A stretch of DNA of 64,000 nt, from the NCBI GenBank assembly GCA_964394435.1, contig CAYMXN010000002.1, forward strand, positions 206,196 through 270,195, written 5' to 3'. Shown piece after piece: positions 15,597 through 17,292 of the stretch (position 1 is its first letter; each line of letters begins with the position of its first letter). Position numbers and translations under genes: made by a program. The notes below the pieces were generated by a model, which saw only the letters and a list, made by a program, of their open reading frames with translations, did no database searches and was not told the DNA's origin. This DNA is from an uncultured Candidatus Saccharibacteria bacterium (GTDB lineage: Bacteria > Patescibacteriota > Minisyncoccia > UBA6257 > 1-14-0-10-44-23).

Positions 15597-15754
15597 GCAT
15601 CAGTATGATCAAATACTTTGTAGTTGCCCCAACCATACAATCTCCCAAACCTTGCGGTAAGGGGAAGGTGTCGTGACTTAAAAGCTCCACGACCAACACT
15701 TATTTGTTTTATCAAAATCGACACTCCTTTAATCTCCGAAGAGAAAAAAGAAAA

Positions 15755-17292
15755 GTTTAATTGATCCACGCACAGCTTCCGCTACGCGTGCCTTGTTACG
15801 ACTTAGTCCTCATCACCGAGCCTACCTTTGTGTTACCGAAGTAACCCTTTGGGTATTCCCGGCTCCGCTGACTTGACGGGCGGTGAGTACAGGACTCGAG
15901 AACGTATTCACCGCGGCGTGCTGATCCGCGATTACTAGCGATTCCGACTTCATGAGGGCGAGTTGCAGCCCTCAATCTGAACTGGGGCAGGTTTTTTGGG
16001 ATTAGCTCCACCTTACGGTTTGGCAACCCTTTGTACCTGCCATTGTAGCACGAGTGTAGCCCCGGACATCAGAGGGCCATGCTGATTTGACATCATCCGC
16101 TCCTTCCTCCCCCGTTCTTATCCACGAACATTGCTGTTCCTGAACAAAAACGGGGGCGGTTCCGTGTGACATATATAACACACGGTGCGGGTTGCGCTCG
16201 TTACCCCACTTAAGGGAACACTTCAAAGCACGAGCTGACGACAACCATGCAGCACCTGTCCATGAGTCCTTGCGGACGACACTAGTTTCCTAATGTCTTC
16301 CCATGGATTTCAAGCCCGGGTAAGGTTTTTCGTTTTGCGTCGAATTGAACCTCATGCTCCACCGCTTGTGCGAGTCCCCGTCTATTCCTTTGAGTTTTAA
16401 TCTTGCGATCGTACTTCCCAGGCGGCCGACTTAACGCGTTAGCTGTGTCACTCCGAGGGTCGATACTCGAAACAACTAGTCGGCATCGTTTAGGGCGTGG
16501 ACTACAAGGGTATCTAATCCTTTTTGCTCCCCACGCTTTCGTGCATGAGAGTCAGCAGTGTTCCAGTTACATGCCTTCGCCTTTGGTATTCCCCACGATA
16601 TCAACGGATTTCACCCCTACACCGTGAGTTCCAGTAACCTCTAACACGCTCTAGTCTGACCGTATCCCATGCGGTGACACCGTTAAGCGGTGACATTTAA
16701 CACAAGACGCATCAGACCTCCTGCGCACTCTTTACGCCCAATAAATCCGGATAACGCTCGGGGCCCTCGTATTACCGCTGCTGCTGGCACGAGGTTTGCA
16801 GCCCCTTATTCCCTAGGTACCATCAATAACTTTTTCCCTAAGAAAAGAAGTTTACAGTCCGAAGACCTTCATCCTTCACGCGGCGTCGCTCGATCAGACT
16901 TTCGTCCATTGTCGAATATTCTCGACTGCTGCCTCCCGTAGGAGTACGGACCGTGTCTCAGTTCCGTCGTTGGGGATCAGCCTCTCAGCCCCCCTACTGG
17001 TCATAGCCTTGGTGAGCCGTTACCTCACCAACTAGCTGATCAGACCTAAGCCAATCTCAAAGCGTCTTGCGACTTTACTCTTGCGAGACCATCGGGAATT
17101 ACCTTACCTTTCGGTAAGTTATGCCCGACTTTGAGGTATGTACTAAGGTGTTACTAACCCGTTCGCCACTAAACATTTCCATCCGTCATCATTGATATAA
17201 TCTCAAACTTCTTCAAAAAATGTTTCGTTCGACTTGCATGCCTTATCCACGCCGCCAGCGTTCATCCTGGACCAGGATCAAATCCTCATAAA
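15755..17292 (-). rRNA. rrs: 16S ribosomal RNA, about 1.54 kb, not linked to a 23S gene
   Basis: Minus strand contains 5' GATTTGATCCTGGTCCAGGATGAACGCTGGCGGCGTG. ACTCCTACGGGAGGCAGCAG is present. The 515 site variant GTGCCAGCAGCAGCGGTAATAC is present. GCAACGAGCGCAACCC is present. The 3' end reads AAGTCGTAACAAGGCACGCGTAGCGGAAGCTGTGCGTGGATCA. Confidence 0.95.

What the first reader, a model, noticed from the sequence alone, without database searches (positions are those of the whole stretch)
15721..15800. 16S rRNA 3' end lacks the canonical CCUCC anti-Shine-Dalgarno, and native genes lack SD
After the conserved ...GUCGUAACAAGG...UGGAUCA the minus strand reads AUUAAACUUUUC rather than CCUCCUUA. 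About twenty native start codons were inspected (pth, ftsA, both pilins, the ribosomal operon genes, clpB, iscS, htrA, tsaD, valS, prfA, the ABC exporter and others); none has a GGAGG-like motif 4-12 nt upstream. The rpmE promoter places the TSS about 5 nt from the ATG. Together this points to SD-independent, partly leaderless initiation with a modified 16S tail, which is rare in bacteria.
Basis: seen in the sequence. Interest (0 to 1): 0.7.

Follow-up and report, generated by a model that had tools for sequence, protein, structure and literature searches.

The report
16S rRNA without anti-Shine-Dalgarno tail
This uncultured ultra-small (CPR/Parcubacteria) bacterium really has a 16S rRNA whose 3' end lacks the CCUCC sequence that normally finds ribosome-binding sites, and its genes have no such sites and often start right at the transcript's first base; this is real, but it is typical of its lineage and was already noted in the literature.

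Summary
The 16S gene (15754-17293, minus strand) is full length. After the conserved GGAUCA it reads AUUAAACU where the bacterial consensus has CCUCCUUU. About 64 ORF starts show no Shine-Dalgarno (SD) enrichment: 8-9% carry an SD 4-mer, against about 10% at random positions. The same method gives 47% against 7% in E. coli. About 27% of genes have a TANNNT -10 box ending 6-8 nt before the ATG (2.6 genes expected by chance; 4% in E. coli), which implies leaderless mRNAs. Operon-internal genes sit 2-25 nt apart behind A/U-rich, weakly structured starts.

The tail is not an assembly error. In independent metagenome and genome assemblies, 113 of 120 16S genes with the same helix-45 signature also lack CCUCC. 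AUUAAAYU is conserved in 16S genes only 78-91% identical to this one, and conservation stops after 8 nt. mRNA leaders show no complementarity to the new tail, so it is not a replacement SD system.

The nearest named relatives are Harrisonbacteria and Wolfebacteria (Parcubacteria). Tsurumaki et al. 2022 already reported anti-SD loss in a Parcubacteria subgroup. This is therefore a new member of a known kind. What remains unexplained is why the replacement tail is conserved.

The parts
15754..17293 (-). 16S rRNA gene, full length
   Evidence: Rfam RF00177, 1424.6 bits, model positions 1-1533 of 1533
15754..15761 (-). 3' tail AUUAAACU, occupying the positions of CCUCCUUU (the anti-SD)
   Evidence: cmscan alignment. 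Per-position conservation is 0.79-0.97 over 39 dereplicated clade members and falls to 0.59 and then 0.33 at positions 9-10.
15762..15767 (-). Conserved GGAUCA linker after helix 45
15768..15790 (-). Helix 45 with the clade signature CACGC...GGAA...UGCGU (approximate limits)
   Evidence: The base of the helix (GGCACG) co-occurs with loss of CCUCC: 113 of 120 in the metagenome scan.
15607..15632 (-). 3' trailer arm (UUGGGGCAACUACAAAGUAUUUGAUC) of the leader-trailer processing stem
   Evidence: Complementary over 26 nt, with 2 mismatches, to the leader arm at 17352-17377. A homologous element is present in relatives.
17352..17377 (-). 5' leader arm of the processing stem
15565..15596 (-). Terminator-like hairpin with a U run that ends the stand-alone 16S transcription unit
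   Evidence: Read from the sequence; terminal hairpin in the predicted fold; coordinates. The tool's own terminator scan did not list it.
17720..17747 (-). Candidate 16S promoter, TTGACA-16-TATACT
   Evidence: 11 of 12 consensus match
22480..22485 (-). Example of a leaderless-type -10 box: TG-TATACT 7 nt before the ATG of gene 21414-22472
27333..27338 (+). Example: TATAAT 6 nt before the ATG of the ABC exporter gene 27345-29162
31567..31572 (+). Example: TATAAT 7 nt before the ATG of prfA 31580-32335
61804..61809 (+). Example: TG-TATACT 7 nt before the ATG of the HSP20-family gene 61817-62296
18983..19024 (+). rpmE promoter TTGACA-17-TATAAT, then 11 nt to the ATG (leader about 4-5 nt)
53756..57287 (+). 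Operon rpsM-rpsK-rpsD-rpoA-rplQ-rplM-rpsI. Internal starts are separated by 2-12 nt (78 nt before rpoA) and have no SD.
2438..2812 (-). ybeY, the RNase for 16S 3'-end maturation, is retained
   Evidence: Pfam PF02130; NCBIfam TIGR00043
3294..3506 (-). Probable divergent bS21, a protein that neighbours the 16S 3' tail in other bacterial ribosomes
   Evidence: PF01165, E=1e-4, 22.3 bits, below the curated cut-off; rpsU-yqeY gene context

Best explanation
The window comes from a CPR (Parcubacteria/Paceibacteria-like) bacterium in a large clade that has lost the CCUCC anti-Shine-Dalgarno core of 16S rRNA. Start-site selection therefore cannot use SD:anti-SD pairing.

Shown here: the tail sequence, the absence of SD motifs, -10 promoter boxes at a fixed 6-8 nt before about a quarter of all ATGs, tight gene packing, and A/U-rich weakly structured start regions.

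Inferred: first genes of transcription units are translated from leaderless or near-leaderless mRNAs, with the ribosome binding a 5'-terminal AUG. Operon-internal genes are started by termination-reinitiation or by entry at unstructured A/U-rich junctions.

SD-independence probably came first. Canonical-tail CPR relatives also show no SD enrichment, and most CPR lack Era, which reads GAUCACCUCC. CCUCC then decayed, apparently more than once. In this subclade the new tail AUUAAAYU is kept by selection for some function other than pairing with mRNA, possibly 3'-end processing or a contact with a ribosomal protein.
For: - Tail sequence.
- No SD in the window, with an E. coli positive control.
- Pooled clade data: 216 genes from ATTAAA-tail loci have SD 4-mers in 10% (12% in the upstream control region) and a leaderless-type -10 box in 20% (4% control).
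- Position-specific -10 peak at spacers 6-8. It is present in 15 of 44 unit-first genes and 2 of 18 internal genes.
- Pyrimidine at -1 in 63% of clade genes (T 42%, C 21%), as expected if the A of the ATG is the transcription start.
- Internal same-strand gaps: median about 5 nt.
- Start windows fold at -3.55 against -6.33 kcal/mol for internal windows, p=6e-7.
- Not an artefact and not private to this genome: 7 of 120 genome hits and 113 of 120 metagenome hits lack CCUCC. Clade members 78-91% identical in 16S share AUUAAAYU. All anti-SD-less 16S genes form one clade in a neighbour-joining (NJ) tree.
- No complementarity to the new tail: window dG -2.24 against -2.25 for shuffles. In the clade, 5-mers occur in 16.7% against 19.5% shuffled; 6-mers in 8.8% against 5.5% (z=2.3), the same absolute rate as in other clades.
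- Taxonomy: RpoA is 64-68% identical to Harrisonbacteria and Wolfebacteria proteins; uL13 is short at both ends.
- Literature: anti-SD missing in a Parcubacteria subgroup (PMC9297842); most CPR lack Era (PMC10582724, PMC12641178); organisms without an anti-SD lack SD (PMC3457768, PMC6107228).
Against: - No transcript or ribosome data. Transcription start sites, leaderless status and the mature 16S 3' end are all inferred from sequence.
- Gene starts come from a crude longest-ORF/first-ATG caller, and some are wrong. For example, the response regulator really starts at 15516, and rpmE was missed.
- Only 64 kb of the genome was seen, so a second 16S copy with CCUCC cannot be excluded.
- A small excess of canonical SD-like hexamers persists in anti-SD-less genomes: 5.6% against 2.7% shuffled, z=2.8. 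A few genes have well-spaced AGGAGG-like motifs (window GNAT gene 30006-30587). These are unexplained.
- Deep conservation of AUUAAAYU is not predicted by simple loss of function.
- There is a weak positional bump of tail-complementary k-mers at -20..-11.
- The inference that SD-independence came first rests on 142 genes from 28 short loci.
Confidence: 0.85

Rival explanations
1. Replacement system. The tail AAUUAAAC is a new anti-SD that pairs with a co-evolved A/U-rich mRNA motif (UUUAAUU-like) upstream of start codons.
For: The tail is conserved across 16S genes only about 80% identical, and conservation ends at the position of the E. coli mature 3' end. TTAAT and TAATT are among the 5-mers most enriched at -22..-3 compared with -60..-31. 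Tail-complementary 6-mers show a bump at -20..-11 and z=2.3 against shuffles.
Against: Duplex energy with the real tail equals that of shuffles. 5-mer complementarity is below shuffles (z=-1.2). The 6-mer rate (8.8%) equals that in clades with different tails (8.4-8.5%). Against a same-composition expectation, TAATT and TTAAT are no more enriched than other A/T 5-mers, and no more than in other clades. The hits are scattered in position, and several are parts of -10 boxes or stop codons. Amin 2018 found no variant SD/anti-SD pair in 128 anti-SD-less organisms (PMC6107228).
Confidence: 0.06
2. Artefact or non-functional copy. The tail reflects mis-assembly or a pseudogene, or a second 16S gene elsewhere carries the normal CCUCC.
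For: Only one 64-kb window was examined. This is a metagenome-type sequence. The 16S gene is unlinked from 23S.
Against: The Rfam match is full length and high scoring. A promoter, a leader-trailer processing stem and a terminator are all intact. The same tail occurs in dozens of independent assemblies, including complete chromosomes (L017 OY970354.1; L091 OZ246399.1). The absence of SD motifs is the matching signature on the mRNA side.
Confidence: 0.03
3. The tail is not part of the mature rRNA. Processing trims the 16S at or near GGAUCA, and AUUAAACU is conserved only as a processing signal or as the base of a precursor hairpin.
For: In clade members, positions 7-8 (CU) pair with AG just before the conserved GUCGA, forming the base of a trailer hairpin (my reading of the sequences). 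ybeY is retained. In canonical sequences conservation also extends into the precursor (CCUCCUUUCUAGGGAG).
Against: Positions 1-6 (AUUAAA) are conserved at 0.90-0.97 without any obvious pairing partner. The conserved length equals that of the mature E. coli tail. There are no data on the real 3' end either way. This rival changes only the role of the tail, not the conclusion that SD pairing is absent.
Confidence: 0.1

Closest known systems
Anti-SD-less Parcubacteria subgroup (Tsurumaki et al. 2022, RNA 28:1041, PMC9297842)
   Same: A CPR lineage whose 16S lacks CCTCCT. uL13 is short at both ends. The nearest named proteins are from Harrisonbacteria and Wolfebacteria.
   Different: The paper reports only the motif detection rate (48% in Parcubacteria) and an overlap with the group lacking uL1. 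It does not describe the replacement tails, their conservation, the lack of SD, or leaderless-type promoters. uL1 status could not be checked in this window.
Non-anti-SD genomes of Lim et al. 2012 and Amin et al. 2018 (Chryseobacterium/Riemerella group, Blattabacterium, Sulcia, Carsonella and other tiny proteobacterial symbionts, hemotropic Mycoplasma)
   Same: CCUCC is replaced by A/U-rich sequence. There is no SD enrichment and no variant SD that matches the variant tail.
   Different: A different phylum. Here the loss spans a very broad, old environmental radiation, and a specific replacement tail is conserved over 16S genes only about 80% identical. Leaderless-type promoters are also prominent.
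Bacteroidia-type SD-independent initiation (anti-SD present but sequestered; A-rich leaders)
   Same: No SD usage; A-rich, G-poor, weakly structured start regions. Canonical-tail CPR relatives look like this state.
   Different: Here the anti-SD sequence itself is gone, and many genes have no leader at all.
Leaderless-rich bacteria (Actinomycetota such as Mycobacterium, Deinococcus; PMC4633059)
   Same: A -10 box at a fixed short distance from the start codon, with strong ATG preference.
   Different: Those organisms keep a canonical anti-SD and use SD on their leadered genes.
Mammalian mitochondrial translation, and E. coli ribosomes whose anti-SD is cut off by MazF
   Same: A small-subunit rRNA without an anti-SD, combined with leaderless mRNAs.
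   Different: One is an organelle system with dedicated factors; the other is a post-transcriptional, stress-induced cleavage. Here the state is encoded in the gene and is constitutive.

Membership tests
Non-anti-SD bacteria (sensu Lim 2012 / Amin 2018) | No CCUCC in the tail (about 13 nt) that follows helix 45 | tested here: met
   GGAUCA-AUUAAACU
Non-anti-SD bacteria (sensu Lim 2012 / Amin 2018) | The motif is absent from all 16S copies of the genome | not testable with these tools
   Only one 16S gene lies in the 64-kb window; the rest of the genome is not available.
Non-anti-SD bacteria (sensu Lim 2012 / Amin 2018) | No SD enrichment upstream of coding genes | tested here: met
   8-9% against about 10% at random; dG equal to random; E. 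coli control 47% against 7%. Clade pool 10% against 12%.
Anti-SD-less, uL1-lacking Parcubacteria group (Tsurumaki 2022) | Belongs to CPR/Parcubacteria | tested here: met
   RpoA's nearest named hits are Harrisonbacteria and Wolfebacteria at 64-68%. The 16S clusters with CPR loci. uL13 is truncated at both ends. rbfA is present, consistent with Paceibacteria according to PMC12641178.
Anti-SD-less, uL1-lacking Parcubacteria group (Tsurumaki 2022) | Ribosomal protein uL1 (rplA) absent | not testable with these tools
   The rplK-rplA region is not in the window or in the extension L122.
Leaderless-dominated gene starts (a -10 box immediately upstream of start codons) | Position-specific -10 hexamer 6-8 nt before the start codon in a sizeable fraction of genes | tested here: met
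   17-18 of 64 genes against 2.6 expected; E. coli 4%. Present in 15 of 44 unit-first genes.
Leaderless-dominated gene starts (a -10 box immediately upstream of start codons) | Mapped transcription start sites coincide with the start codon | not testable with these tools
   No transcriptome data are available.
Bacteroidia-type SD-independent initiation | Canonical anti-SD retained in 16S but not used | tested here: not met
   CCUCC is absent.
Alternative SD/anti-SD pair (variant tail with a matching variant leader motif) | Leader motif complementary to the organism's own tail, enriched at SD-like spacing | tested here: not met
   dG equal to shuffles. 5-mers z=-1.2; 6-mers z=2.3 but at the same rate as clades with other tails. 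Hits are scattered in position.

The most novel reading that the evidence does not exclude
The clade has not merely lost the anti-SD but has re-purposed the 16S 3' end. The 8-nt tail AUUAAAYU, held constant across an order- to class-level radiation while the adjacent trailer is unconstrained, would be a selected functional element. It could be a docking site for a ribosomal protein or initiation factor, or a low-affinity A/U 'standby' contact that helps 30S or 70S particles capture leaderless and A/U-rich starts. If so, different subclades (UUUUUUUA, CUACAUUU, UUUAUUUU) have evolved different solutions.
Probability: 0.15. Interest if true: 0.7.

Novelty: new member of a known kind. Interest (0 to 1): 0.4.

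Why it matters
SD:anti-SD pairing is the textbook way bacteria find start codons. A very large and environmentally abundant bacterial radiation that lacks the rRNA half of that pairing shows that SD-free, largely leaderless initiation can be the normal state of a free-standing bacterial lineage, and not only of organelles or insect endosymbionts.

There are practical consequences. Gene finders that score ribosome-binding sites will misplace starts in these genomes. 16S annotation and primer sets that assume ...CCTCCTT will truncate or miss these genes. Expressing CPR genes in other hosts, or building genetic tools for CPR bacteria, will need different translation signals.

The conserved replacement tails give a concrete handle for asking what else the 16S 3' end does.

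Tried and rejected
1. Co-evolved alternative SD. I tested this with duplex energies, k-mer complementarity against shuffles, same-composition 5-mer ranking, cross-clade controls and positional profiles from -60 to +150. Only a weak signal appeared, and it was not specific to the clade. Rejected as a general mechanism.

2. A hidden CCUCC further downstream (intron or insertion). The trailer is non-coding and holds hairpins, a processing-stem arm and a terminator. The CACCUUCCCCUUA string is not conserved in relatives.

3. The conserved 'GGGGCAACUA..AAAG' trailer element looked like a possible new RNA. It turned out to be the 3' arm of the ordinary leader-trailer processing stem.

4. ORF 15109-15699, which overlaps the trailer, is over-extended. 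The Pfam domain starts at residue 68. A promoter (15566-15539) and an in-frame ATG at 15516 fit a shorter gene.

5. High-GC Actinomycetota and Chloroflexota loci failed as a positive control for SD, because the crude start calling does not work there. They were replaced by E. coli K-12.

6. TM7 (Saccharibacteria) primer signatures did not place the organism: 3 mismatches each. The 'Saccharibacteria' and 'Gammaproteobacteria' labels on several loci are unreliable.

7. The first genome scan pattern was less clade-specific than intended. The window's own genome was not recovered there.

8. No supplementary tables of Tsurumaki 2022 are held, so the list of anti-SD-less phyla could not be read.

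Full report
**1. What is at the coordinates**

The window holds one complete bacterial 16S rRNA gene on the minus strand, 15754-17293 (Rfam RF00177, 1424.6 bits, model positions 1-1533). It holds no 23S, no 5S and no tRNA gene.

The covariance-model alignment of the 3' end reads ...GUCGUAACAAGG-CACGCGUAGC-GGAA-GCUGUGCGUG-GAUCA-AUUAAACU. The consensus has GGAUcACCUCCUUu. Helix 45, its GGAA loop and the GGAUCA linker (15762-15767) are normal. The eight following bases (15754-15761) are AUUAAACU instead of CCUCCUUU.

**2. The locus is a healthy gene**

- A near-consensus promoter, TTGACA-16-TATACT, lies at 17747-17720.
- A 26-nt segment of the leader (17352-17377) is complementary to a trailer segment (15607-15632). 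This forms the usual long processing stem around a 16S.
- A hairpin followed by a U run (15565-15596) ends the unit.
- The long ORF that seems to overlap the trailer (15109-15699) is over-extended. Its receiver domain starts at residue 68, and a promoter plus an in-frame ATG at 15516 fit a shorter gene.

**3. Genes lack SD**

I called about 64 non-overlapping ORFs. Most are supported by Pfam.

| Measure | Window genes | Window random positions | E. coli genes | E. coli random positions |
|---|---|---|---|---|
| SD 4-mer (GGAG, GAGG or AGGA) at -18..-4 | 5-6 genes (8-9%) | 9.5-10.6% | 47% | 6.7% |
| Mean duplex energy with ACCUCCUUU (kcal/mol) | -2.1 to -2.2 | -2.3 to -2.4 | -4.9 | -2.3 |

The E. 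coli values come from the identical procedure on 50 kb of K-12, so the method can see SD where it exists.

**4. Leaderless signature**

The hexamer TANNNT shows a sharp positional peak ending 6-8 nt before the ATG. It occurs in 17-18 of 64 genes against 2.6 expected. For the stricter TAYRMT the count is 10 against 0.35. E. coli gives 4%.

The peak is found in 15 of 44 genes that head a transcription unit and in only 2 of 18 closely following genes. In the pooled clade data, position -1 is a pyrimidine in 63% of genes (T 42%, C 21%). That is expected if the A of the ATG is the transcription start.

rpmE (19022-19285; NCBIfam L31) has TTGACA-17-TATAAT followed by 11 nt before its ATG.

Operon-internal genes are packed tightly. 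Gaps are mostly -4 to +25 nt, with a median of about 5. Start regions are A/U-rich, G-poor and weakly folded: -3.55 against -6.33 kcal/mol for internal windows, p=6e-7.

**5. Relatives**

A scan of one genome per species, using a helix-45 pattern that leaves the tail free, returned 120 loci.

- 112 have CCTCCTT after GGATCA.
- Seven CPR loci do not. All seven have the helix base GGCACG.
- The nearest, a closed 829-kb chromosome (OY970354.1, L017), is only 81.8% identical in 16S yet has the same ATTAAACT.
- The remaining locus, a Limisphaerales contig (L069), has the one-base variant TCTCCTT.

A metagenome scan with the clade's helix-45 signature returned 120 more loci. Only 7 have CCTCC. The most frequent tail types are:

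| First 7 nt after GGATCA | Loci |
|---|---|
| ATTAAAC | 28 |
| TTTTTTT | 21 |
| TTTATTT | 9 |
| CTACATT | 8 |
| ATTAAAT | 6 |
| ATTCCAA | 5 |

There are also relic forms: TCTCCTT, CCTCATT and CCACATT.

In the window's subclade (39 dereplicated sequences, 78-91% identical to the window's 16S) the eight positions AUUAAACU are conserved at 0.79-0.97. Conservation then collapses to 0.59 and 0.33 at positions 9 and 10. That is exactly the length of the mature E. coli tail.

A rough neighbour-joining (NJ) tree puts all anti-SD-less sequences in one clade, sister to two canonical-tail CPR sequences. The relic tails are nested inside it. This suggests relaxed constraint at the base of the clade followed by several independent decays.

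**6. Is the new tail a new anti-SD?**

I tested this in several ways.

- Duplex energy of window leaders with GAUCAAUUAAACUUUUC equals that of shuffled leaders (-2.24 against -2.25).
- In 216 genes from ATTAAA-tail loci, 5-mer complementarity is below shuffles (16.7% against 19.5%).
- 6-mer complementarity is slightly above shuffles (8.8% against 5.5%, z=2.3). The absolute rate is the same in clades with other tails (8.4-8.5%).
- TTAAT and TAATT are enriched upstream relative to coding sequence, but no more than other A/T words and no more than in other clades.
- The hits are scattered in position and often belong to -10 boxes or stop codons.
- A modest bump at -20..-11 remains.

I conclude that there is no general replacement pairing. 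A minor role cannot be excluded.

**7. Evolutionary order**

Canonical-tail CPR loci from the same scans (28 loci, 142 genes; labels include Magasanikbacteria, Uhrbacteria and Falkowbacteria) also show no SD enrichment (10% against 10%). They show a leaderless-type -10 box in 15% of genes.

Most CPR lack Era, the assembly GTPase that reads GAUCACCUCC (PMC10582724, PMC12641178). In the window, ybeY is not followed by era.

I infer that SD-independence, and the loss of other readers of the tail, preceded and permitted the decay of CCUCC. This step rests on a small sample.

**8. Who is it?**

- RpoA's nearest named homologues are from Candidatus Harrisonbacteria (64-68%) and Wolfebacteria (64%).
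- uL13 is shortened at both ends (profile positions 8-123 of 141), a Parcubacteria trait according to PMC9297842.
- rbfA lies just beyond the window. This argues against Saccharimonadia, WWE3 and Dojkabacteria according to PMC12641178.
- The same organism occurs in several public sequencing runs.

**9. Comparison with what is known**

- Loss of the anti-SD with matching loss of SD is documented in some Flavobacteriia, insect endosymbionts and hemotropic mycoplasmas (PMC3457768; PMC6107228, 128 of 20,648 taxids).
- For CPR, Tsurumaki et al. 2022 state that CCTCCT is detected in only 48% of Parcubacteria, and that the lineages without it overlap the uL1-lacking group (PMC9297842).
- Full-text searches found no paper that links Patescibacteria or CPR with leaderless or SD-less initiation.

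The core observation therefore belongs to a known kind and, very probably, to a known group. What this analysis adds:

- the mRNA-side evidence (no SD, leaderless-type promoters);
- the breadth of the loss (113 of 120 sampled 16S genes);
- the subclade-specific, conserved replacement tails;
- the absence of a matching leader motif.

**10. Open points**

- A few genes in anti-SD-less genomes still carry well-spaced AGGAGG-like motifs.
- The reason for the deep conservation of AUUAAAYU is unknown.
- Transcription start sites, the mature 3' end and the 16S copy number are unmeasured.

**Verdict**

This is a new member of a known kind, of moderate interest.

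Noticed in passing
window 31580-32335 (+): The only release-factor gene seen encodes a 251-aa RF1 that lacks the whole N-terminal domain 1. It matches RF1 profile positions 101-345 of 347 and PDB RF1 residues about 110-347. The PAT and GGQ motifs are present. Only 54 nt separate it from the divergent neighbouring gene, so there is no room for a longer N-terminus.
   Followed up: partly
window 15565-17747 (-): The 16S gene is a stand-alone transcription unit with its own promoter, a leader of about 420 nt, a leader-trailer stem and a terminator. 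No 23S, 5S or tRNA gene occurs anywhere in the 64 kb. The same unlinked layout, with a terminator after the trailer, is seen in relatives L073, L082 and L094.
   Followed up: partly
window 3294-3506 (-): A 70-aa basic protein upstream of yqeY-ybeY looks like a divergent bS21 (Pfam PF01165, E=1e-4, below the curated cut-off; no NCBIfam hit). In other bacteria bS21 sits next to the anti-SD, so its retention and divergence here may be relevant.
   Followed up: partly
window 30006-30587 (-); L017, L073, L094: A minority of genes in anti-SD-less genomes carry well-spaced canonical SD-like motifs. Examples are the GNAT acetyltransferase (TTG start, AGGAGA 6 nt upstream) and AGGAGG at -13..-7 in three relatives. 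Clade-wide, canonical SD hexamers occur in 5.6% of genes against 2.7% in shuffles (z=2.8). They may reflect recent horizontal transfers or a function unrelated to SD.
   Followed up: partly
loci L001, L012, L024, L027, L043, L044, L047, L060, L064, L074, L077, L085, L087 and others: CPR relatives that keep a canonical CCUCCUUU tail also show no SD enrichment (10% against 10%) and show leaderless-type -10 boxes (15%). The anti-SD may therefore be unused across a wider part of the CPR, as it is in Bacteroidia.
   Followed up: partly
canonical loci (consensus): In the 107 canonical 16S genes, conservation extends past the mature end as CCUCCUUUCUAGGGAG. The precursor trailer can fold back on the anti-SD. 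The anti-SD-less clade instead has an unrelated hairpin that starts at tail positions 7-8.
   Followed up: no
window 56455-56820 (+), 54152-54604 (+), 56823-57287 (+): uL13 is only 121 aa, truncated at both ends. uS11 has an N-terminal extension of about 39 aa and uS9 one of about 33 aa before their Pfam domains.
   Followed up: no
window, whole length: GC skew is positive along almost the whole plus strand whatever the gene orientation. The cumulative skew rises steadily, so the window probably lies within one replichore.
   Followed up: no
loci L003, L009, L015, L018, L038, L067, L070, L079, L080, L101: Several MAG contigs labelled 'uncultured Gammaproteobacteria' carry CPR-type 16S genes that cluster with Magasanikbacteria and other Patescibacteria in the NJ trees. 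The public labels are probably wrong, or the bins are contaminated.
   Followed up: no
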